Translations under genes and position numbers: made by a program | Shown here: positions 8,049-63,757 of the stretch, one piece after another | Numbering within the stretch: the first letter of the stretch is position 1 | Layout of the letters: each line of letters begins with the position of its first letter | DNA from: a virus | DNA length: 64,000 nt | IMG/VR virus record: IMGVR_UViG_3300021171_000008 | Location: 1 to 64,000 of that record | Reading direction: 5' to 3' (one strand) | Notes under the pieces: model-generated | Seen by the model: the letters and a program-made list of their open reading frames with translations, nothing else | Told to the model about the DNA's origin: nothing | Databases searched by the model: none

Positions 8049-8768
8049 ATGAACGGCTCCGGCTACAACCCTTCGGCGATTCAGATCCGGCGGCAGCTCG
8101 GCGCCACGCGGCCGGTTCGCCCGCCGAGACTGCCGACGGCGAACGCGAACCCGAAGCTCGGCGGATCGCTCAACCTTCACTCGCTGATGCGGCCAGGGCG
8201 CGCGAGCGGCGGCGCAATCAACGACAGCCCCGAGACCCCGTTCACGGGCGGCATCATGTCGGTTGGAGCTGGTCGCGCCGATGACGTCCCGATGCACGTT
8301 CCTGACGGGGCTTATGTCGTGCCGGCGTGGGGGGTCAGCCACCTGGGCGAGGGGAACACGATGAGCGGCATGGCCATGCTCAAGGGCATGTTCGGGCAGC
8401 CGTGGGGCGCGGCGAAAGCGCCGTGGGGCGCGCCGCAGCCCAAGTCGATGTCGGGGGGAAAGGGCGTCCCGATCCCGAAGCCTCCGCCCATGCATTTTCA
8501 GCCGCCGAATTTCTATCCGCAGGGCATGTCAGCGGAGAACCCCGCGCTCGCGGACCCGAGGCAGAAGCACGGCGGCGCGGCGCGCGGCCCCGGTCCGGCA
8601 GTCCCGATTAACGCGAGCGGCGGCGAGTTCATTATCGCTCCAGATGAGGTCGCACGGATCGGGGACGGTAATATCGACAAAGGACACCTTGTCCTCGACA
8701 AGTGGATCACGCTTCTCAAGAAGGAAGCCGCGAAGACACTGATGAAGCTACCGGGACCAGCCAAATGA
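8049..8768 (+). CDS. Virion/internal protein with xAxGG motifs (GRADDVP..ASGGEFII)
   Basis: ORF in structural operon; 8607-8636 matches the decoded neighbouring array. Confidence 0.6.
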   Translation: MNGSGYNPSAIQIRRQLGATRPVRPPRLPTANANPKLGGSLNLHSLMRPGRASGGAINDSPETPFTGGIMSVGAGRADDVPMHVPDGAYVVPAWGVSHLGEGNTMSGMAMLKGMFGQPWGAAKAPWGAPQPKSMSGGKGVPIPKPPPMHFQPPNFYPQGMSAENPALADPRQKHGGAARGPGPAVPINASGGEFIIAPDEVARIGDGNIDKGHLVLDKWITLLKKEAAKTLMKLPGPAK

Positions 8769-8800
8769 ACTGGGAGGACGAGACGTGACCCTCATCCTCC

Positions 8801-8914
8801 CAGCCTTGGCGTGCCTGCCTGCCTTGCCTTGCCTCGCCATGCCACGCCAAGCCTCGCGCCGCCCCGCCGAGCCGCGCCTTGCCATGCCTCGCATGGCCAC
8901 CGCCATGCCCCGCC
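8801..8914 (-). ncRNA. Stand-alone GGY-NN pentamer array (putative guide RNA unit B)
   Basis: GGC-NN periodicity; upstream promoter-like TTGCAG..TATCT; 5' hairpin GCATGGC-GGTG-GCCATGC; 3' hairpin 8770-8803. Confidence 0.8.
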
Positions 8915-43022: not shown

Positions 43023-43411
43023 TGGTTCAGAGTCCCGCTCGCGTTCCTCAGACGTAGACTTTCCCGCTGCCGCCCTCTTCGATGTCGATCGGGTCATATT
43101 CGCCCGTGACCGCGCCGAACTCGTCAGGCTGCAACAGATATTCGCGGACATGTTCCCAGCCGCGATCTGCGGTGCGAGGCACGATGCGCAAAAGATGCTC
43201 CGGCGGGAACCCAAAGGACTCGTCCTCAAAATCAACGCGCACGCAGTCCGCCGTCTCGCGCTCGCTTCCAGTGACAGTCGCCAACTCGCAAGCGACCAGC
43301 CGTCCGTCCCAGTCGGCAATGTCATCGCCCTCAAGGTCCACTCGGTCGCCAATGCGAATATCGGCGGCCTTCACTTCGATCATGCATTCCATGGTCTTCG
43401 ACTCCGTTGGT

Positions 43412-43467
43412 AGGCTCATCAGTGGCGGCCAAACCGCCAGACGCGCGCCAGAGCGCGCGTTTCGCCT
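43412..43467 (-). ncRNA. Hammerhead ribozyme, type II
   Basis: AGGC-GAAAC-[GCGCGC/GCGCGC]-GUC-[UGGCGG/CCGCCA]-CUGAUGA-GCCU. Confidence 0.92.
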
Positions 43468-46120: not shown

Positions 46121-46699
46121 ATGGCAGATCCGGGAAAGCCAAGGGCACGGAAGAGCAGGGCGCTGACGAGTGAGGAATTGGCGGAGCGGGAGAAGCAGGC
46201 GAAGGAGATGGAGGGTTCGATTGAGCAGATGTCGGCGAATGGTCTGACGCCTCAGGAGATCAGTTTGCTGACGGGGTTGAGCGCGGATCGGCTGTACAGG
46301 AAGTACAAGGGGCAGATGATGAAGGGCGGGGCGAGGCGGACGAACGAGGTTGCGCAGGCGGCGTATTTGATGGCGACGGGGGGACCGGAGAAGAACTGGC
46401 GACAGGCTGACGCGAGTATGAACAAATTTTGGTTAGAGCGTCGTGGTGGGCCGATCTGGGCGCCGCCGAAGCCGGATCAGGAAGCGGGGCCGGACTTGAC
46501 GCGGTTGAGTGTTCCGCAATTGATTGAGTTGGAGCGGGCGTTGCGGCCGCTAGCGAGACATCCGGTGCTGATTGATGCCGAGGTCGAATCTACCGAGCCA
46601 CGAGGCGGTGGTGGCGGAGTTGATGAAAAGGGAGCTGGGGATTTCGTCGATGGAGGCGTCGGCGAGCGTGTCGACGGTTCGGGAGCGGTGCCGGAATAG
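46121..46699 (+). CDS. Terminase small subunit (putative)
   Basis: HTH-like N-half, KFWLERRGG; directly upstream of and overlapping TerL. Confidence 0.65.
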   Translation: MADPGKPRARKSRALTSEELAEREKQAKEMEGSIEQMSANGLTPQEISLLTGLSADRLYRKYKGQMMKGGARRTNEVAQAAYLMATGGPEKNWRQADASMNKFWLERRGGPIWAPPKPDQEAGPDLTRLSVPQLIELERALRPLARHPVLIDAEVESTEPRGGGGGVDEKGAGDFVDGGVGERVDGSGAVPE

Positions 46700-48233
46700 T
46701 TTGGTGAATTTTGTTGAGGAGGCGTGGCCGATTTTGGAGCCCCGGATGGTGTTTGTGAAGGGGCCTTTGGTCGAGGCGATCTGCGAGCATTTGGAAGCGG
46801 TTTCGGCGGGGCTGATTACGCGGCTGTTGATCAATGTTCCGCCTGGGTCGGCGAAGTCGCTTTTGGTCAGTGTGCTTTGGCCGAGCTGGGAATGGGGCCC
46901 TCGGGGTCTGACGTCGTATCGGTACATCAGCTCCAGTTTTGCGGAGAGCGCGTGCGTTCGGGACGTTCGCAAGATGCGGATGTTGGTGACCAGCGACTGG
47001 TATCAGCGTCACTGGCCGCATGTTGAGTTGACGCGCGGTGGGGAGCTGTCGTTTGAAAATTCGATGACGGGGACGCGGGACGGGGTTGCGTTCTCCAGTC
47101 TGACTAGCCGGCGCGGTGACAGATTGATTCTGGATGACCCGCACAGTGTGGAGAAGGCGGAGAGCCCGAACGATCGGGAGAAGGCGACGCGGCGGTTTCG
47201 GGAGAGCGCGGTGAACCGTCTGAACGATCAGGCGCGCTCGGCGATCGTTGTGGTGATGCAGCGGCTGCACGAGGCGGACATCAGCGGGGTGATCATGGAG
47301 TACATGCCCGATTATTGTTTGTTGGTTTTGCCGATGGAGTACGAATCGTCGCGGCATTGCGAAACGAGCATTGGATTTAGCGACTGGCGGCGCAGCGAGG
47401 GGGAGCTTTTGTTTCCGGCGCGGTGGGGCCGGCAGGAGGTTGAGAACCTCAAGCGGGACATGGACAAATTTGCGTGGGCTGGCCAGTACCAGCAGCGGCC
47501 GGCGCCGCGAGGCGGGGGGCTGTTTCCGTATGGCGGCTGGGAATATTGGCATCGCGGGATTGCGCTGACGTTCGGCAGGAACGAATCGCAATATCCGGAC
47601 ATGGACGTGATCCTGGGCTCGCTGGACCCGGCTTACGGCGAGAAGCAGGAAGCCGATTTTTCGGCCTTCATCGTGCTCGGGCTCTGGACGAACCATCGCG
47701 GGGTGCAACAGGCGATGTTGATGGCTTGCTGGCAGAAGCGGCTGGCGTTGAACGATCTGGTCGAGGAGGTGATCAAATCGTGCAGAAAATTGAAGGTCGA
47801 TCGGCTCTTAATCGAGCTGAAAGCGTCAGGGATCTCGGTCGCGCAGGAGATTTCGCGGCTGACGCGGGACGAGGAATTTGCGGTCCAGCGGATCGATCCG
47901 GGTAATATGGACAAGGTTTCGCGCGCGAACGCGCTGTCGCATTTGTGGGGCGAGGAGCAGGCGGATGGCAGTGTGCGCAAGGGCGTCATCTGGTGCCCAG
48001 CTCAGACGCAGAGTAACGGGGCGGTTTGGCCTCGGGATTGGGCCGAGCTGTGCATGAGCCAGTGCGCGAGCTTCCCGAAAGGGAAATTCGACGACATCGT
48101 TGACGCCTTGTGTCAGGCGCTGAAGTGGTGCCGCGATCGGGGCTTGCTGAAGAAGTCGACCGAGGTCCAGGCGGAGGAATACGCGGAGCTGATGGCGTCG
48201 CCGCTTCCCCCGCAGCCGCTGTACCCGATTTGA
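46575..48233 (+). CDS. terL: Terminase large subunit
   Basis: LLINVPPGSAKS, LILDDPH, VVMQRLHE, QYQQRP, IELKASG, FPKGKFDDIVDA. Confidence 0.95.
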   Translation: MPRSNLPSHEAVVAELMKRELGISSMEASASVSTVRERCRNSLVNFVEEAWPILEPRMVFVKGPLVEAICEHLEAVSAGLITRLLINVPPGSAKSLLVSVLWPSWEWGPRGLTSYRYISSSFAESACVRDVRKMRMLVTSDWYQRHWPHVELTRGGELSFENSMTGTRDGVAFSSLTSRRGDRLILDDPHSVEKAESPNDREKATRRFRESAVNRLNDQARSAIVVVMQRLHEADISGVIMEYMPDYCLLVLPMEYESSRHCETSIGFSDWRRSEGELLFPARWGRQEVENLKRDMDKFAWAGQYQQRPAPRGGGLFPYGGWEYWHRGIALTFGRNESQYPDMDVILGSLDPAYGEKQEADFSAFIVLGLWTNHRGVQQAMLMACWQKRLALNDLVEEVIKSCRKLKVDRLLIELKASGISVAQEISRLTRDEEFAVQRIDPGNMDKVSRANALSHLWGEEQADGSVRKGVIWCPAQTQSNGAVWPRDWAELCMSQCASFPKGKFDDIVDALCQALKWCRDRGLLKKSTEVQAEEYAELMASPLPPQPLYPI

Positions 48234-50273: not shown

Positions 50274-50350
50274 GCCCAGGTAGCTCAGTTCGGTAGAGCG
50301 CTGCGTTGAAGGCGCAGGCGTCGGAGGTTCGATTCCTTCCTTGGGCACCA
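50274..50350 (+). tRNA. trnF: tRNA-Phe(GAA) with encoded CCA
   Basis: Full cloverleaf: GCCCAGG/CTTGGGC acceptor, CTGCG-TTGAAGG-CGCAG anticodon arm, GGAGG-TTCGATT-CCTTC T arm. Confidence 0.9.
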
Positions 50351-51295: not shown

Positions 51296-52111
51296 ATGAA
51301 GTCCCCGAGGGTGACGGCTAAGAAAGAATCCGTCGAAATCAAACCGATTGAGATGCGCAAATTCGTCGTCCATCTGGTCGGCGAGAATCTTCTCATGCAC
51401 CGCTTCGCGCAAAAAGCGTGGCAAGAACTGCTTTTGCCCGCCTCGAAAGGGAAGGCGGCCGAAGGCGCGCCGCTCAAGCATGATCCTCTGAGCGAGTTTC
51501 GCGATTCGCTCTATCGCTGCCGCGACGTCCAGGCGCCAACCCTGTTTCACTTGCCGAACGGCATCGTGAGCAAGGCCATGGCGGCGGCGGCGCTCGACAT
51601 GGGCGGGGCGTTCAAGACACAAATCCAGCGGCTGACCATGGTTCTGACGCCGACGCTGCATTTGTACGGCGTGCCGGAGCTGCGCATGGACATGGTGCGC
51701 AACTCCGATATGGCCAGGACGCCGGATGTGCGGACGCGGCCGATCTTTAAGCGCTGGGCGCTCCCCAATGTGGTGATCCAGTACAAGGTCGCGCCGCTCA
51801 ACGACAGCCAGATGCTGAATCTGCTCGCGGGCGCCGGCCAGATCGTCGGTTTCGGTGATGGTCGCCAGCAAAAGGGCGGTGGCCCGGAGGGCGGCCCGTT
51901 CGGCTGCTTCCGCATCGTCAGCGATCACAATGATCCGGAGCTGAAGGAGATCATGGCGACCGGCGGGCGGGCCGCACAGCAGGCCGCGTGGACCGATCCG
52001 GAGATGTTCGACGAGAACACCGCCGAATTGATGGACTGGTTCAACGTTGAGATCGATCGCCGCCACAAGCCTCGTCGGGGCGATGGCGCCGCCGTGCAAG
52101 TGGGAGCTTGA
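51296..52111 (+). CDS. Cas7/RAMP-like RNA-binding protein, putative effector of the GGY-NN arrays
   Basis: VHLVGENLLMH first strand, HLPNGIVSKAMAAAA helix, C-terminal Gly-rich loop AGQIVGFGDGRQQKGGG..FGCFRI; own promoter CTTGAC-N17-AATATG at 51221-51249. Confidence 0.75.
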   Translation: MKSPRVTAKKESVEIKPIEMRKFVVHLVGENLLMHRFAQKAWQELLLPASKGKAAEGAPLKHDPLSEFRDSLYRCRDVQAPTLFHLPNGIVSKAMAAAALDMGGAFKTQIQRLTMVLTPTLHLYGVPELRMDMVRNSDMARTPDVRTRPIFKRWALPNVVIQYKVAPLNDSQMLNLLAGAGQIVGFGDGRQQKGGGPEGGPFGCFRIVSDHNDPELKEIMATGGRAAQQAAWTDPEMFDENTAELMDWFNVEIDRRHKPRRGDGAAVQVGA

Positions 52112-52112
52112 A

Positions 52113-52604
52113 ATGGAGCAAGAACGACGAGAGCTTTTGTGGCAGGCGTTGGTCGCCAGCGCTGTTGACGGTCTCATCACGGCCGATAGCGTGGTCGAAG
52201 CCGCGAAGGACCCCGCGAACGTCCTGCACGGCGAGTTCGAGTGGCGGGACGATGTCGCCGCTCACCGATACAGGCTGCAACAGGCGCGGCAGCTGATCCG
52301 GATCTATTCCCCGCGAGTGGATTACATCTCGATCAAGGACGAGGCGCCGGTCGAGCGCGACATCGTCTACTTGCACGATCCGCGCGTCGGCCCGCGTGTC
52401 CAGGCCTACGTGTCGTCGGCCACTCTCGCGGACGATGGCGACGCTTCGCTCACGGCGGTCTTGCTCGAACTCAGGTCCGTCAGCGCGGCGGTGACGCGGC
52501 TCGCGCGCGTCGCTCATGCTCTGGGAGTCGAGTGCCCGACTGGGGATCTGGAGGCCGCCGTCCAGGCGTTGGCTGAGCGTCTCCAGGGGCGGAATGCAGC
52601 GTAA
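52113..52604 (+). CDS. Partner protein in RAMP operon
   Basis: VVEAAKDPANVLHGEFEWRDDVAAHRYRLQQARQLIR; lies between RAMP gene and array. Confidence 0.7.
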   Translation: MEQERRELLWQALVASAVDGLITADSVVEAAKDPANVLHGEFEWRDDVAAHRYRLQQARQLIRIYSPRVDYISIKDEAPVERDIVYLHDPRVGPRVQAYVSSATLADDGDASLTAVLLELRSVSAAVTRLARVAHALGVECPTGDLEAAVQALAERLQGRNAA

Positions 52605-52614
52605 GTGCGTATCA

Positions 52615-52884
52615 GGCAAGGCAGGCACGGTTAGGTGGGGCCGGGTAAGGCGAGGCAGGGTCAGGTTAGGTCCGGTGAGGCAGAGCAAGGCAGGCGCGGC
52701 TGGGCTGGGCAAGCCTTGGGCGGCATGGCTGGGCGCGCTTTGGTATGGCTCGGCAGGGCTCGGCAGGCACGGCGTGGCAAGGCGCGGCGAGGCTTGTCAA
52801 GGCATGGCTGGGCTAGGCGAGGCAGGCGAGGCAAGGCGAGGCTCGGTCTGGTGCGGCCGGGTCAGGCGAGGCAGGCCATGGCAC
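52615..52884 (+). ncRNA. Main GGY-NN pentamer array (four units separated by GGCA), putative guide RNAs
   Basis: About 50 GGY-NN units starting 10 nt after the partner gene stop and ending at a terminator. Confidence 0.85.
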
Positions 52885-52889
52885 GGGGG

Positions 52890-52915
52890 AGGGGGCGGCT
52901 TCGGCCGCCCCCTTT
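52890..52915 (+). terminator. Intrinsic terminator after array
   Basis: AGGGGGCGGC-TTCG-GCCGCCCCCT-TT. Confidence 0.8.
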
Positions 52916-53566
52916 CTATTTGTCGACCATCCTCGACACGACCGATCGCGTGAACGGGCGGCCGGACGAGCTGACAAAGCCCTGGTTCGCCAGCGCTGCG
53001 CGCACCGCGTTGAGCGATGCGCCTGCCTGACGCAGCTGCTTTGCGATCTTGGTCATCTTCGGGTCCATTTCGGCCCAGGATTTTCTGCCCTCGCACTTGC
53101 CGGTCGTGGCCTTCTTGCGGTCGCGCGCCGCCTTGAGCTTGGCGACCGTCAATGCCCGGTCGAACTCAGCGACCGCGCCCAGGATCTGCCGGACCAGGGA
53201 CGCCGTCGGCGTGTCCTCGACGAAGCTCCCAGGCGAATCGACGGCGACCAACTCGACGCCGAGATCTTGAAGCATCTTCCAGCCGGTTTCCTGCACCATG
53301 AGATCGCGGGCGAAGCGGTTGGCGGTCTCGACGAGGATCGTTCTCACGCCATTCCCGGCGATCCGCTGGAGCATGAGGCCGAAGCCCTCCCGCTGGGTGA
53401 CCGGATCGGCGCCGGAGACGGCGGCGTCGTAATATTCGGCGACGATCGAGATATCGTTTCGCTCGGCGAACTGGCGGACGGCCCGCTCTTGGCGGCCGAG
53501 GCTGTCCTTGTCGACGCCGACGTTGGTGGCGGACGAGGTTCGGAAGTAGGCGACGGCTTTTTTCAC
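52916..53566 (-). CDS. Serine recombinase (resolvase family) with C-terminal HTH
   Basis: AVAYFRTSS, SLGRQ, DAAVSG, NRFARD, ILGAVAEFDR. Confidence 0.9.
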   Translation of the reverse strand: MKKAVAYFRTSSATNVGVDKDSLGRQERAVRQFAERNDISIVAEYYDAAVSGADPVTQREGFGLMLQRIAGNGVRTILVETANRFARDLMVQETGWKMLQDLGVELVAVDSPGSFVEDTPTASLVRQILGAVAEFDRALTVAKLKAARDRKKATTGKCEGRKSWAEMDPKMTKIAKQLRQAGASLNAVRAALANQGFVSSSGRPFTRSVVSRMVDK

Positions 53567-59907: not shown

Positions 59908-62232
59908 ATGGTCGACGATCTCGGCGACTATGATGTCACCCCTGTCGAGGGAAACCCCTTCGGCTCGATGGCGTCGTCGCCGAACGACTACGACGTCTCG
60001 CCGGTCGATCACGATCCTTTCGCTGGCGCTGGCGAAAACCCGGCGCCAGACCAATTTGAGCTAGCCTCGCGGCAGCCCGAGGCCACGCCGTCGAGCGCAG
60101 GCAGGCCACCGCTCGATCCTGGCGATCGCGATCTCCTCATCAAAACGGTTTTCGGCGAGGCGAGCGGCGAGCCGCCGCTTGGTCAGGCTGGCATCGCCCA
60201 CGCCATCCTGAACCGGGTCCGCGCTGGCGACTATGGCTCGGGGATCGCGGGCGTCGTGAAGGCTCCGGCTGCCGGCTTGAACCCGCGCCTTGGCTACCAT
60301 GAGTTTTCGCCCTGGAACACGGGGCGCGCCACCGAGGGCAATCCCACCGCGCAGCACCTCTCGCCAGACAATCCGAATCCGGTTCTGGCCAGGGCCTACC
60401 GCAACATCGGCGACGTCGTCGACAAGGCCTATTCGGGTCTCATACCCGATCCGACCGGCGGCGCGACCCACTATTACGGGCGTATGCGCGGTCACCCGTC
60501 TTGGTCGCCGCCGCTCGCCGCGCAGAATCAGGTCCGGATCGGGGGCACGACGTTCGTCGGCCGCGAGCACGGCCCAGGCGAAATAGCGAGCCAGACGGCC
60601 AGCGGCTACGCTGGCGGCGGTCCAGTGCAGCTCAACGCAGACTTGCGGCGCCGCCTCTCGATGATCACGCGGCCTCGCTTCGCCGAGGGCGGCGCGCCGG
60701 ACGATGATCCACTGGGCTCCAGTGTCACCATGGCGTCTGACCAAACCGCCGACGCGCCCATTGCCTACACGCCTGAAGACATCGACCAACCGGGGCCGAT
60801 GACGGAAACGCTGGCCCATTACGCAGGGAACCCGGCGCACGCGATGCCGATGCGGGTCGGCGCCGCGATCGGCGAGGAGGCCAAGCGCATGGGGCAGGGG
60901 CTCTGGAGCGCGGCCACGGTCCCTGGCGACGTCGCTACCGGCAAAGCCTCGATGGCGGACCCGGAAACACAGCAGCGGGTCACGAGCCTCGCCGCGTCGT
61001 TGCCAGGAGGGGGGCCGGAGGCGGCGCTCGGCGCGCGCGGGCCGGTTGGCGCGGCGGCCAAGGCGGTCAAGGGCGCTCCGGCGACGCGCGAGCTTAATGT
61101 CTGGAATCCGACGACCGGCCTGTGGGAGGGCCCGAAGCCGACGCTGAACCCGCCGGAGGGCGTGCATTACGATCCGATGTTCAATTTCGATCCGGCTTTG
61201 ATGAACAAGGTGCCGGACGTGCCGCAGTTTGAATTGCAGCGCTATGACCCGCCGCGTGGCGTCTCGGACCGCATGCGCGATCTGGTGACCAACTCGGACG
61301 TCCGCGCTCAGATGATCGGCATCGTCCGCAACGGCATGCAAACGGTGGGGCTGAGCTGGTACAATACCGGCCAGCTTCGCGCGATGTTCTTAAAGGAGCT
61401 TGGCGACGACGCCGGCCAGCAGGCGTTCGAGAAGTATATGAACCTCGTGTCGGCCACGAGCCCCGAGAATAAAATCCCGCAGAACATCCGGACTGCCAGC
61501 TATTTCTATGAGCGCGACGCCGCAGGCGTGCCGCCGCCGGAAAGAGGGGACCCGATCGCGCAGCCTTACGGCTCGAAAGCGCAGAAGCTGCATCAGCAAA
61601 ACGTGGGCAACGTCCTGACCGAGGGCTACGACGTCCTCAAGAACCCGAAGCCGCCGTCCTTCGTTCAGAATTTGATGGGCAATTACGCCCCCGGCACGAT
61701 GGACCGGCACGCCTTCAAGTTGCCAGCGATTCTCTCGCGTGATCCGCGTTTCTTGGAGACGTCGTTCACGCCGGAAAAGGGCGTGGAGCCGGTGCGCCCA
61801 CAACGGATGTTCCAAAACGGTGAACTGTCGATAGACGACGCCGTCAATCAGCCGACGATGTGGGCTGGCATGCCGAACAAGAACGAGTATGCCGCGCTTG
61901 AGGGCTGGTACAAGTCGATCGGCGACGAGCTGGGGATCACGCCTGCCCAGGTGCAGGCGTCGGCCTGGGTTGGCGGGGGACATATCACGGGTCTGGCCTC
62001 GGCCGCCGACGAGACCTTCCTGCATTCCTTCCAGGGACGGGTGTTCAATACCGCTCACCACACCGGCCAAACGCCCTCAGAGGTGGTCAAGCGGATGATC
62101 AGGGGCGAGCAGCCTTTGCTTTCCGGCGGGCCGGGGATGGCTCCGACAGCAGCTCAAACTTCGACGGCTGGGGCGGGAGGTTCGCCTCCGCCACCATCTG
62201 ATCAAGCAGAGCCCGGACATCCGTTTTATTGA
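59908..62232 (+). CDS. Multidomain virion protein: SleB/Hydrolase_2 cell-wall hydrolase plus uncharacterised C-terminal domain
   Basis: TVFGEASGEP..ILNRV..EFSPWN..DPTGGATHYY; C-terminal SATSP..FVQNLMG..MDRHA..TPAQVQASAW. Confidence 0.7.
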   Translation: MVDDLGDYDVTPVEGNPFGSMASSPNDYDVSPVDHDPFAGAGENPAPDQFELASRQPEATPSSAGRPPLDPGDRDLLIKTVFGEASGEPPLGQAGIAHAILNRVRAGDYGSGIAGVVKAPAAGLNPRLGYHEFSPWNTGRATEGNPTAQHLSPDNPNPVLARAYRNIGDVVDKAYSGLIPDPTGGATHYYGRMRGHPSWSPPLAAQNQVRIGGTTFVGREHGPGEIASQTASGYAGGGPVQLNADLRRRLSMITRPRFAEGGAPDDDPLGSSVTMASDQTADAPIAYTPEDIDQPGPMTETLAHYAGNPAHAMPMRVGAAIGEEAKRMGQGLWSAATVPGDVATGKASMADPETQQRVTSLAASLPGGGPEAALGARGPVGAAAKAVKGAPATRELNVWNPTTGLWEGPKPTLNPPEGVHYDPMFNFDPALMNKVPDVPQFELQRYDPPRGVSDRMRDLVTNSDVRAQMIGIVRNGMQTVGLSWYNTGQLRAMFLKELGDDAGQQAFEKYMNLVSATSPENKIPQNIRTASYFYERDAAGVPPPERGDPIAQPYGSKAQKLHQQNVGNVLTEGYDVLKNPKPPSFVQNLMGNYAPGTMDRHAFKLPAILSRDPRFLETSFTPEKGVEPVRPQRMFQNGELSIDDAVNQPTMWAGMPNKNEYAALEGWYKSIGDELGITPAQVQASAWVGGGHITGLASAADETFLHSFQGRVFNTAHHTGQTPSEVVKRMIRGEQPLLSGGPGMAPTAAQTSTAGAGGSPPPPSDQAEPGHPFY

Positions 62233-62684
62233 GAAGCTCGTTGAGCGGCAGCCGCTCAAGCACGGTTCCGCCGTCCTCGCCGAAGACTTCCAGCTCCCAG
62301 CGGCCACCTAAGCTGCCGTGCTCCCGCCAGAGCGGCCAAGCTTTGTAAGCGCTCATCGTCGACTCTCTTTAAGCGCCGGGGCCTTCAGCGGCCTAGTCCC
62401 CGGCAGTCCGTTCTCACCCGCTAGCTTAGGCGTCCGCGAACCTGTATCCCTACTATTTCCGCGCCGTTGGGTCTTTCGGCAACGCGGCGATCAAGCGTTG
62501 GTGGCGCTCATATTCGGCGAGGCCGACGGCGAGGTCGGGGTGCTTTCCGGCATGGATGCTTTGCATCTTGGAGGCAAACCGAACCGGGCCATTGGTCTTG
62601 CCATGTTTGTCGATGTCCTGCGTAAGCGTGCTCATTCGACTCTCCTATTTGCATGACTGGGGCGGGACCCACGGCCCCGCCCCC

Positions 62685-62762
62685 TGCCTGCCTCGCCGCG
62701 CCTTGCCTTGCGCCGCCCTGCCACGCCTCGCCAAGCCTTGCCTTGACAGGCCTTGCCTCGCC
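62685..62762 (-). ncRNA. Stand-alone GGY-NN pentamer array (putative guide RNA unit C)
   Basis: 14 pentamers plus 2 GGCA; promoter TTGCAA-N17-TATCTT (62813-62785); 5' and 3' hairpins. Confidence 0.82.
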
Positions 62763-62866
62763 TCGGTGCATTTGCACCAACTGCAAGATAAGGGCCCTTT
62801 CGCGCAATTGCAATCGGCGCTAGGAATTGCCGCGTTGAAAGGCTGGACCCCAAAGAGGGTTCCGCC

Positions 62867-63757
62867 ATGGGCGAACACAGTCAAAAGAGCTTCACGGCCG
62901 ACAAACTCCGAAAGTTTGAGGTCTCGGGCAAAAACGGCGGCTCCGGAAACGGAGACAAGGGCGCTTCGGCAGACGATTTCGGGCGGAAAGCCGCCCGCAC
63001 GAGCGATTCTTCCGCGTTCGCCGCTGGCGGCGCCGCGAAGGCGCCCTCGCTTGGTCGCGCCGGCCGCGCGAAAGGCGGACGCATCAATCGCCCTGCGGTG
63101 GCTTCGGCTGACTTTAAGCCGTCGAAGACCGGCGGCAATTATCCCGGCAAGATTCCAGACAACGAGGGCGGCAAGGCCCGCAATCTTTCTATGCTCACCG
63201 ATGGCGGTCCGCGATCCTATGGCGATCGGCCGTTGATCATTGGCCATGGCGACCAAAACGCCATGCGCGCTAGAGGCGGCAAGGTTTCGCGCGCCAGGGG
63301 CGGCCGAACCGAAATTAGTGATCTGAGGGACGACAAGACTTCGCTCGCCAGAGGCGGGCGGGTCGGCCGCGCGCACGGCGGCAAGGCCAAGGGCGCGAAG
63401 GGCAAAACCGTCGTCAATGTCATCGTGGGCGGCAAAGGCGATCAGCAGCAGCCGCCTCCGACGCCTCCGATCATGCCGCACCCGATGGTGCCTCCTCCAC
63501 CTCCTCCGCCGCCGCCGCAGGGGATGCCTCCTGGTGGGATGCCGCCGGGGATGCCTCCTGGCGCTGGTATGCCGCCTCCGCCGCCGCCGAGACCGCCTAT
63601 GCCGCCTCCGGGTGGCATGCCGCCGGGAATGCCTCCTCCGGGCATGGGCCGCGCGCACGGCGGGCGGATCTCCGAGAAGTTCGGCGCGGGCTCCGGCCGA
63701 GGCCGGATGGAGAAGACCAAGCGCCAGGGCCACGGGAAGGTGAAGCTAGCCGAATGA
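62867..63757 (+). CDS. Basic Gly/Pro-rich virion protein with repeated RAxGG motifs
   Basis: RAKGG, RARGG, RAHGG repeats; 62900-62935 matches the decoded adjacent array. Confidence 0.65.
   Translation: MGEHSQKSFTADKLRKFEVSGKNGGSGNGDKGASADDFGRKAARTSDSSAFAAGGAAKAPSLGRAGRAKGGRINRPAVASADFKPSKTGGNYPGKIPDNEGGKARNLSMLTDGGPRSYGDRPLIIGHGDQNAMRARGGKVSRARGGRTEISDLRDDKTSLARGGRVGRAHGGKAKGAKGKTVVNVIVGGKGDQQQPPPTPPIMPHPMVPPPPPPPPPQGMPPGGMPPGMPPGAGMPPPPPPRPPMPPPGGMPPGMPPPGMGRAHGGRISEKFGAGSGRGRMEKTKRQGHGKVKLAE

What the first reader, a model, noticed from the sequence alone, without database searches (positions are those of the whole stretch)
47568..47600. Main-array unit 1 decodes to a terminase large subunit segment
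U1 AC TA GG CG AA GA AG CA TA CC GA (= T Y G R N E S Q Y P D) versus own TerL ACg TTc GGc AGg AAc GAa TCg CAa TAt CCg GAc (TFGRNESQYPD). 8 of 11 dinucleotides match (18/22 nt). The mismatches are Phe/Tyr, synonymous Arg (AGG vs CGN) and synonymous Ser (TCG vs AGY). Inference: this guide targets the essential packaging gene of a close relative.
Basis: partly seen in the sequence, partly recalled or inferred. Interest (0 to 1): 0.9.

Follow-up and report, generated by a model that had tools for sequence, protein, structure and literature searches.

The report
Phage VIPR guide targeting rivals' terminase
A soil phage carries a recently described kind of RNA-guided weapon (VIPR): one guide reads two of every three bases and matches the terminase gene of related phages perfectly, but its own copy only 8 of 11 times.

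Summary
Window 47568-47600 lies in frame in terL and matches 8 of 11 variable dinucleotides of unit 1 (52627-52678) of a (NN-GGY)n tract. Its own refutation test came out in its favour: five related IMG/VR contigs carry terL with the predicted TAY/CGN/AGY variant, an 11/11 match, while 200 shuffled guides never exceeded 8/11.

The system is not new. Three 2026 bioRxiv preprints describe VIPR, in which a minimal RAMP protein (Vipr) polymerises on vrRNAs made of GGY/NN repeats and reads double-stranded DNA while skipping every third base. The scan's sibling notes on this same window proposed the same reading.

Membership tests are met:
- The 271-aa ORF beside the array hits SUSP1 Vipr (profile E=3e-7) and folds as a Csm3-like RAMP.
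- The array is of the "staggered" type.
- Targets are aligned to the wobble position and lie in VIPR-less relatives.

Guides U4 (recombinase, 9/9) and solo array C (12/12) behave the same way.

Verdict: a new member of a known kind.

One extra observation may be new. Own-copy mismatches are largely Ser/Arg codon-box swaps, and 35-49% of conserved terL serines are box-switched between relatives, against 0/76 in control phages. This hints at synonymous escape from VIPR.

The parts
51296..52111 (+). vipr: 271-aa minimal RAMP protein, the presumed effector that polymerises on vrRNA
   Evidence: A profile of 41 homologues searched against PDB sequences gives SUSP1 Vipr (36pp) at E=3.1e-7, with the next hit at 0.37. 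AlphaFold model: pLDDT 83, pTM 0.80. Foldseek top hits are Csm3, Cmr4 and Cas7-11 RAMPs, prob 1.0. No Pfam or PADLOC hit; PHROG 4652, unknown function.
52113..52604 (+). Candidate vap (vipr-accessory) gene, 163 aa, mostly helical, function unresolved
   Evidence: It sits between vipr and the array, as in published VIPR loci. Only 3 homologues were found. The fold has pLDDT 61 and was not interpreted. No nuclease or helicase domain in Pfam.
52614..52876 (+). Main vrRNA array, staggered type: four guide units (U1 52627-52688, U2 52696-52761, U3 52769-52820, U4 52828-52869), each bounded by a GGC-A-GGC one-base slip
   Evidence: Tokenised sequence. GGCAGGC junctions at 52620, 52689, 52762, 52821 and 52870. 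The array starts 10 nt after the vap stop codon. The paper describes staggered arrays with 1-nt overlaps.
52627..52678 (+). Unit 1 guide core: 11 NN dinucleotides AC TA GG CG AA GA AG CA TA CC GA (the two following 3' units, AG and AA, do not match any target found)
52877..52912 (+). 3' tail and GC hairpin with T-run (GGGGGCGGC-TTCG-GCCGCCCCC-TTT), the end of the array transcript
   Evidence: Sequence. RNAfold -33.8 kcal/mol for 52860-52915.
47568..47600 (+). Own terL footprint of unit 1 (codons 333-343, TFGRNESQYPD): 8/11 NN match, the mismatched 'self' copy of the site that is a perfect target in relatives
53486..53512 (-). Own serine-recombinase footprint of unit 4 (DKDSLGRQE): 7/9. Eight relatives without arrays have 9/9.
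   Evidence: Resolvase domain.
62657..62765 (-). Solo vrRNA 'C' with 3' hairpin, a ~135-bp insertion flanked by duplicated ATTTGCA. The guide matches 12/12 to the homologue of gene 62867 in L062 and 10/12 to the window's own gene at 62900-62935.
8775..8905 (-). Solo vrRNA 'B' with 3' hairpin. Best match is the window's own upstream gene at 8607-8636 (8/10); four relatives match 9/10; no perfect target found.

Best explanation
Unit 1 is one guide (vrRNA) of a phage-encoded VIPR system. The operon 51296-52912 encodes a minimal RAMP protein (Vipr), a small accessory protein and a staggered array of four vrRNAs. Two further solo vrRNAs lie elsewhere in the genome.

By analogy with the experimentally studied SUSP1 system, Vipr protomers would bind each GGY triplet and present the adjacent NN. 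The NN would pair with positions 1-2 of successive target triplets in double-stranded DNA, and the third (wobble) base would be flipped out. The resulting filament would block transcription.

Unit 1's natural target is the terL gene of closely related phages that lack VIPR, where it matches 11/11. The carrier's own terL differs at three units (Phe for Tyr, Arg AGG for CGN, Ser TCG for AGY). That leaves 73% NN match, below the 80% level used in the literature to call targets, so the carrier is presumably spared.

The likely role is to exclude or handicap co-infecting relatives by silencing their packaging gene.

Shown here: the anatomy, homology and fold of Vipr, the code, and the perfect targets in relatives. 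Inferred: expression, RNP assembly, silencing, and the mismatch tolerance that spares self.
For: - (1) Code and target: 11/11 in five relatives at the orthologous in-frame terL site, 10/11 in about 14 more, and 8/11 in self and its 99% twins. Shuffled-guide maximum is 8/11 in 200 permutations.
- (2) Same behaviour in sibling guides: U4 is 9/9 in eight relatives' recombinase, and C is 12/12 in L062.
- (3) Effector: profile hit to SUSP1 Vipr at E=3e-7; RAMP fold.
- (4) Architecture matches published VIPR loci: vipr, then vap, then a GGY/NN array with a 3' structured end, of the staggered type.
- (5) Distribution: the near-complete relatives G001-G003, which carry the perfect targets, have no GGY-NN tract and no vipr. 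Array-bearing relatives carry mismatching alleles: a perfect U4 target occurs in 8/9 array-less loci against 0/6 array-bearing, Fisher P=0.0014, not corrected for relatedness.
- (6) The array is identical in independent soil-metagenome assemblies.
- (7) Mechanism and biology of VIPR come from bioRxiv 10.64898/2026.04.26.720920...720927 and 10.64898/2026.10.15.759431.
Against: - No expression, processing or binding data exist for this system, and no RNA run is listed.
- This Vipr is only distantly related to the tested SUSP1 protein: sequence similarity is confined to the G-loop region, and it is 271 aa against 202 aa.
- The accessory protein could not be classified, so silencing versus cleavage is open.
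- Units U2 and U3 and solo B have no perfect target in IMG/VR.
- Solo guide C matches the carrier's own gene at 10/12 (83%) and B at 8/10 (80%). Both are at or above the 80% threshold that the paper reports is never reached by self hits, so the self-sparing argument is not uniformly clean.
- The last two units of U1 match nothing.
Confidence: 0.88

Rival explanations
1. Autoregulation: unit 1 acts on the carrier's own terL through the partial 8/11 match, for example to delay late-gene expression, and the perfect matches in relatives simply reflect shared ancestry of the site.
For: The own-genome match is the best hit in the window and is in frame. Solo guides B and C lie within 150-250 nt of their own-genome best matches, at 80-83% NN identity. 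VIPR is a transcriptional silencer.
Against: A guide evolved for its own gene should match it best, yet all three guides with known targets match relatives perfectly and self imperfectly. The published self-hit analysis finds no self targets at 80% or above. The mismatches are spread across the footprint.
Confidence: 0.06
2. Coincidence: the tract is a low-complexity 5-nt repeat (a slippage product, a G-rich structural or protein-sponge RNA, or a translated Ala/Arg/Gly-rich peptide), and the terL resemblance is chance found by extensive looking.
For: With a mismatch penalty of -1 the self match is not significant (P=0.49). The tract is open in two frames. Relatives' arrays contain SD-like GAGGATATTTTATTGATT motifs. 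Quico's arrays show no own-genome match.
Against: 11/11, 9/9 and 12/12 matches at orthologous in-frame sites in relatives, against a shuffled maximum of 8/11, 8/9 and 9/12. A Vipr homologue is adjacent. The published code is identical.
Confidence: 0.02
3. Decoy or anti-VIPR role: the guides do not attack relatives but redirect or titrate a competitor's Vipr, as satellite-encoded solo vrRNAs do.
For: The third preprint shows solo vrRNAs acting as decoys. Two of the window's vrRNAs are solo and lie far from vipr.
Against: Unit 1 lies in the array directly downstream of the carrier's own vipr-vap operon. Its targets are essential or key genes of VIPR-null relatives, not multi-copy decoy sites.
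Confidence: 0.04

Closest known systems
VIPR systems (Viral Interference Programmable Repeat), e.g. type II of Escherichia phage SUSP1 and a Pseudomonas fulva prophage (bioRxiv 10.64898/2026.04.26.720920; structures in 10.64898/2026.04.26.720927)
   Same: - A minimal RAMP protein next to a small accessory gene.
- Guides of 9-16 YNNGG units with a structured 3' end.
- Target read as NNx, with the skipped base on the codon wobble position.
- Targets in competing phages, with no perfect self-target.
- Solo vrRNAs elsewhere in the genome.
- A recombinase among the targets.
   Different: - Soil phage lineage known only from metagenomes.
- Vipr is 271 aa and shares only the G-loop region with SUSP1 Vipr by sequence.
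- The array is of the staggered kind (GGC-A-GGC junctions), not separate tailed vrRNAs.
- The 3' end is a plain GC hairpin or terminator, not the SUSP1 pseudoknot.
- The target is terL of sibling phages, not a satellite or a lysogeny regulator.
- VIPR type (I-VII) could not be assigned.
Class 1 CRISPR-Cas effector backbones (Cas7/Csm3/Cmr4 on crRNA)
   Same: RAMP fold with G-loop and thumb (Foldseek prob 1.0 to Csm3/Cmr4). A protein filament on the guide RNA. Periodic flipped bases.
   Different: No repeat-spacer array and no other recognisable RAMP/cas gene in the operon. The guide is noncontiguous (2 of every 5 nt used) and the target is read 2 of every 3 nt, whereas CRISPR reads 5 of every 6 on both.
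Phage-encoded CRISPR arrays / mini-arrays used in inter-phage competition
   Same: A virus carries guides that match essential genes of related viruses and spare its own genome.
   Different: Different guide architecture, effector and code. No acquisition machinery is evident.

Membership tests
VIPR | A Vipr protein (minimal RAMP: RRM core, G-loop, thumb) encoded next to the RNA tract | tested here: met
   ORF 51296-52111. HMM profile against PDB sequences gives SUSP1 Vipr 36pp at E=3.1e-7 as the only significant hit. Model pLDDT 83. Foldseek: Csm3, Cmr4 and Cas7-11, prob 1.0.
VIPR | vrRNA made of tandem YNNGG units (conserved GGY, hypervariable NN), typically 9-16 per guide | tested here: met
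   Units of 13, 5+8, 11 and 9 repeats in the main array, and 14-15 in the solo tracts. NN differs completely between homologous arrays of relatives.
VIPR | Invariable, structured 3' tail capping each vrRNA | tested here: inconclusive
   Every tract ends in GGC-A-GGC followed by a stable GC hairpin (-31 to -34 kcal/mol). The hairpin sequences differ between the three tracts, internal units share only the junction (staggered type), and no covariation test was done.
VIPR | 1-nt-skip code: natural targets at 80% NN match or above, mostly in coding sequence with the skip on the wobble base | tested here: met
   U1 11/11, U4 9/9 and C 12/12, all in frame with codon positions 1-2. Shuffled-guide maxima are 8/11, 8/9 and 9/12.
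VIPR | Targets lie in competing mobile elements; no self hit at 80% NN match or above | tested here: met
   For unit 1, self is 8/11 = 73%, and the perfect targets lie in VIPR-null relatives G002 and others. Caveat: solo guide C is 10/12 = 83% and B is 8/10 = 80% on self.
VIPR | vap accessory gene of one of the six described families | tested here: inconclusive
   A 163-aa ORF sits in the expected place. There is no Pfam or PADLOC hit, the fold has low confidence, and no reference vap sequences were available.
VIPR | vrRNAs are expressed, co-purify with Vipr, and the RNP binds dsDNA and represses transcription | not testable with these tools
   No RNA run holds the stretch. This needs sRNA-seq, pull-down and reporter assays.
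CRISPR-Cas | Array of identical direct repeats separated by contiguous spacers, with cas genes | tested here: not met
   No such repeats were found by TRF. No Rfam CRISPR family. Only one RAMP gene is present.

The most novel reading that the evidence does not exclude
VIPR targeting can be escaped synonymously, and such escape leaves a measurable footprint.

Ser, Arg and Leu each have two codon boxes that differ at positions 1-2. A target can therefore break NN pairing without changing the protein. In this lineage the carrier's own copies of all four guide footprints differ from the guide at a Ser codon by a TCN/AGY swap, and in terL also by an Arg CGN/AGR swap.

Between relatives, 35-49% of conserved terL serines have switched box, against about 18% in other genes, 0-3% in some large genes, and 0/76 in three control phage pairs.

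If this is driven by VIPR, it contradicts the published view that the noncontiguous code prevents mutational escape. It would also give a sequence-only signature for finding genes under VIPR attack.
Probability: 0.4. Interest if true: 0.75.

Novelty: new member of a known kind. Interest (0 to 1): 0.55.

Why it matters
**Independent confirmation.** Working from raw sequence in an uncultured soil phage lineage, this analysis recovers the very recently described VIPR noncontiguous code.

**New targets.** It extends VIPR's natural targets to the large terminase, a virion gene and the recombinase of sibling phages.

**A natural experiment.** Dozens of related genomes carry either the weapon with mismatching alleles, or no weapon with perfectly matching alleles. 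That allele series (AGC, ACG and TCG at one Ser codon, for example) is ready-made material for measuring mismatch tolerance and the escape routes of a noncontiguous guide.

**A possible challenge to current claims.** The codon-box-switching signal, if it holds, would qualify the claim that wobble-skipping makes the system escape-proof.

Tried and rejected
- **Translated tract.** I considered that the 5-nt tract is translated into an Ala/Arg/Gly-rich 5-aa-period peptide. It is open in two frames, and relatives' arrays have SD-like GAGGATATTTTATTGATT separators. I set this aside once the NN strings matched relatives' genes perfectly.
- **Other non-guide roles.** A protein-sponge, TRAP-like ring-binding RNA, a G-quadruplex or an R-loop origin were considered from the sequence alone and were superseded by the same evidence.
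- **Rfam.** No family covers the tract. The simple terminator scan missed the terminal hairpin.
- **Other guides.** There is no exact 1-nt-skip target in IMG/VR for U3 or B, and none within 3 mismatches for U3 in five relatives' genomes. U2b's 34 exact hits of a 16-base pattern look like chance and were not followed up.
- **Quico.** The arrays of mycobacteriophage Quico have no own-genome match above permutation nulls and no exact IMG/VR target for one guide. Quico gp56 is not Vipr-like.
- **vap-like ORF.** Only 3 homologues were found and the fold has pLDDT 61, so no fold search was run.
- **Profile libraries.** Pfam and PADLOC gave nothing for vipr or vap.
- **Public runs.** No RNA holder is listed, so there is no evidence on expression either way.
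- **Hammerhead ribozyme.** The Hammerhead_II at 43406-43467 is not adjacent to any GGY-NN tract.
- **Ser swap at the U1 footprint.** It is not exceptional within terL, where about 35% of Ser codons are switched. I therefore do not claim site-specific enrichment, only gene-level and lineage-level elevation.

Full report
**What is at the coordinates.** Window 47568-47600 lies inside a 553-codon ORF (46572-48233, +) that is a large terminase by tblastn: 40% identity to annotated TerL of cultured phages, and 60-99% to many IMG/VR contigs. It reads ACG TTC GGC AGG AAC GAA TCG CAA TAT CCG GAC, in frame, at codons 333-343.

The 'main-array unit 1' of the finding lies 5 kb away, at 52627-52678 (+). 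It is part of a 270-nt intergenic tract with a strict 5-nt period, in which a constant GGY triplet alternates with a variable dinucleotide. The tract begins 10 nt after the stop codon of a + strand gene. One-base slips (GGC-A-GGC at 52620, 52689, 52762, 52821 and 52870) cut it into four units. It ends in a GC hairpin with a T-run. Two shorter tracts of the same kind lie on the minus strand at about 8798-8905 and 62680-62765.

**Is the match real?** The arithmetic is right: 8 of 11 dinucleotides, or 18 of 22 nt, and the hit is in frame with terL. The 11-unit length was not cherry-picked, because it is the longest strictly in-register run in any of the tracts. It is the only hit of 7 or more in the window.

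Random or permuted 11-unit queries reach 8/11 somewhere in the window in only 0.2-0.5% of trials. The significance depends on scoring, however: P=0.012 by local score with mismatch -0.5, and P=0.49 with mismatch -1. Taken alone, the self-match is suggestive only.

**Sibling claims.** The scan's earlier notes showed that the same reader had made three sibling claims: unit 4 to the recombinase, array B to a gene at 8607, and array C to a gene at 62900. I tested all of them together.

In histograms of match counts over the 78-kb genome, each claimed hit is an isolated outlier beyond a smoothly decaying tail. The strongest is array C at 10/12, with nothing at 7-9 and no permutation out of 1000 reaching it.

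**The decisive test: relatives.** The window is the first 64 kb of a 78.4-kb IMG/VR virus record. The search for related loci returned 48 terL relatives and 17 relatives of the gene at 59908. I scanned the guides' NN strings against these 681 kb at codon spacing:

- **Unit 1:** 11/11 on terL of L011, L012, L013, L016 and L017 (ACC TAT GGS CGC AAC GAG AGC CAR TAY CCS GAC). It matches 10/11 in about 14 others and 8/11 only in the window and its 99% twins.
- **Unit 4:** 9/9 on the serine recombinase of eight relatives.
- **Array C:** 12/12 on L062.

200 shuffled guides never exceeded 8/11, 8/9 and 9/12 respectively. Its prediction is confirmed.

**What it is.** A literature search found three 2026 bioRxiv preprints that describe exactly this system: VIPR, Viral Interference Programmable Repeat.

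- According to 10.64898/2026.04.26.720920, VIPR loci encode a minimal RAMP protein (Vipr), usually one accessory protein (Vap), and vrRNAs of 9-16 YNNGG repeats with a structured 3' tail.
- The NN dinucleotides specify a double-stranded DNA target under a '1-nt skip rule', and the skipped base mostly falls on the codon wobble position.
- Binding represses transcription, natural targets are competing phages and satellites, and no PAM is needed.
- Array architectures include 'staggered' arrays whose vrRNAs overlap by 1 nt.
- According to 10.64898/2026.04.26.720927, Vipr protomers form a helical filament on the vrRNA. Each thumb displaces the three GGY bases of the guide and one base of the target.
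- 10.64898/2026.10.15.759431 adds solo vrRNAs and the targeting of a satellite recombinase.

**Membership tests.**

- **Effector.** The 271-aa ORF 51296-52111, two genes upstream of the array, has no Pfam or PADLOC hit. A profile of 41 homologues finds SUSP1 Vipr (PDB 36pp) at E=3.1e-7 as the only significant hit among 177,635 PDB sequences. Its AlphaFold model (pLDDT 83) matches Csm3, Cmr4 and Cas7-11 RAMPs with probability 1.0.
- **Guides.** Met, as described above.
- **Code and targets.** Met.
- **Self-sparing.** Unit 1 is at 73% NN identity on self, below the 80% used in the paper. Solo guides C (83%) and B (80%) sit at or above that line on self, a wrinkle worth noting.
- **3' tail.** Each tract ends in GGC-A-GGC plus a stable hairpin, but I did not show conservation.
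- **vap.** The 163-aa ORF is in the right place but could not be classified.
- **Expression and activity.** Not testable here, and no RNA run is listed.

**Who carries what.** The near-complete relatives G001, G002 and G003 have no GGY-NN tract and no vipr homologue. They carry the perfect targets: U1 and U4 in G002, U4 in G001, and C and U4 in G003.

G004 and the L018/L022/L024 group are VIPR-positive. They have a divergent, shorter Vipr (hhalign probability 97.8%) at the same position next to the recombinase, much larger arrays, and mismatching alleles at the U1 and U4 sites. A perfect U4 target is present in 8 of 9 array-less loci and 0 of 6 array-bearing ones (P=0.0014, not corrected for relatedness).

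Relatives' guides in turn hit the recombinase and the 5' end of the 62867-type gene of other relatives. Solo array C with its hairpin is a ~135-bp insertion flanked by duplicated ATTTGCA inside an operator-like palindrome. It is absent from eight relatives that share the flanks.

Contigs from four independent soil-metagenome studies reproduce the array with 0-1 differences, so it is not an assembly artefact.

**How it most likely works.** Inferred from the distant SUSP1 system, the operon is transcribed from a promoter after the upstream terminator. The array transcript is cut or defined at the GGC-A-GGC junctions. Vipr polymerises on each unit. The unit 1 filament binds the template strand of a co-infecting relative's terL at codons 333-343 and blocks its transcription, which cripples the rival's packaging.

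From general knowledge of TerL architecture, this site lies just upstream of the LGSLDPA strand that begins the nuclease domain. That is an inference and was not tested. The carrier's three mismatched units would spare its own gene.

**An observation beyond the papers.** The carrier's own copies differ from the guides largely by Ser TCN/AGY swaps (all four guides) and Arg CGN/AGR swaps. I asked whether that is unusual.

Within terL it is not site-specific: 14-21 of about 44 conserved serines are box-switched between the window and relatives of 86-93% aa identity. That rate is itself extraordinary, for three reasons:

- Three control phage pairs show 0/27, 0/19 and 0/30. One of them has the same 4-fold-site identity of 0.65 (P=0.0005).
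- Within this lineage, terL (35-49%) exceeds the pooled other genes (18%, P=0.0016).
- Some large genes are at 0-3%.

Part of the difference between the window and its 99% twin is a recombination patch at codons 6-121 that is rich in box switches.

A plausible reading is selection by NN-reading guides for synonymous escape through six-fold-degenerate codons. Text searches of the two preprints that I searched for such terms found no mention of this. The controls are few and relatedness is uncorrected, so I give it a probability of 0.4.

**Verdict.** The system is a new member of a known, very recently described kind, not a new kind. Its value lies in the natural allele series and in the possible escape signature.

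Noticed in passing
L005:2420-2790 (Mycobacterium phage Donkeykong) and L006:2490-2750 (phage Quico): Cheoctovirus (Che8-like) mycobacteriophages carry 270-370-nt (NN-GGC)n tracts with the same GGC-A-GGC slips, just after cro/ant in the early region. The tract is annotated as a hypothetical protein or not at all. The upstream ORF (Quico gp56) is not Vipr-like, and no own-genome or exact IMG/VR target was found. Text searches of two of the VIPR preprints for 'Mycobacter' found nothing. These may be solo vrRNA arrays in actinophages.
   Followed up: partly
window 46572-48233 versus relatives; whole genome versus G001-G003: 35-49% of conserved Ser codons in terL have switched between TCN and AGY among relatives of about 90% aa identity. 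The figure is about 18% in other genes and 0/76 in three control phage pairs. The recombinase is also high; the 774-aa gene at 59908 is at 1/35.
   Followed up: partly
window 62657-62790: Solo vrRNA C plus its hairpin is a ~135-bp insertion flanked by duplicated ATTTGCA inside a TTGCAC-N4-TGCAA palindrome upstream of gene 62867. Eight relatives have the uninterrupted site, and L063 has a different guide at the same place. This suggests that vrRNA cassettes are mobile or are exchanged at this site.
   Followed up: partly
L018:4503-5441, L022:4052-4812, L024:7901-8365: Relatives' arrays reach about 1 kb. They are cut into modules by a conserved GAGGATATTTTATTGATT motif that is absent from the window's array. 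This may be a different vrRNA tail or processing signal belonging to their shorter (197-aa) Vipr.
   Followed up: no
window 43406-43467 (-): A type II hammerhead ribozyme (Rfam, 39.3 bits) lies between two minus-strand genes. It is not adjacent to any GGY-NN tract, although ribozyme-interspersed vrRNA arrays are described for other VIPR types.
   Followed up: partly
window 62867-63757 (+): The gene targeted by solo guides of this phage and of L063 encodes a 296-aa low-complexity protein. It has repeated R-A-(R/H)-G-G-(R/K) motifs and a long Pro/Gly/Met-rich stretch, and no Pfam hit.
   Followed up: no
window 46587-46934 (terL codons 6-121) versus L010: 40 of the 44 codon differences from the 99%-identical twin contig cluster in the first 121 codons, which indicates a recombination patch from a more divergent terL allele.
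   Followed up: partly
window 50274-50350 (+): The phage encodes a tRNA-Phe (GAA), about 1 kb upstream of the VIPR operon.
   Followed up: no
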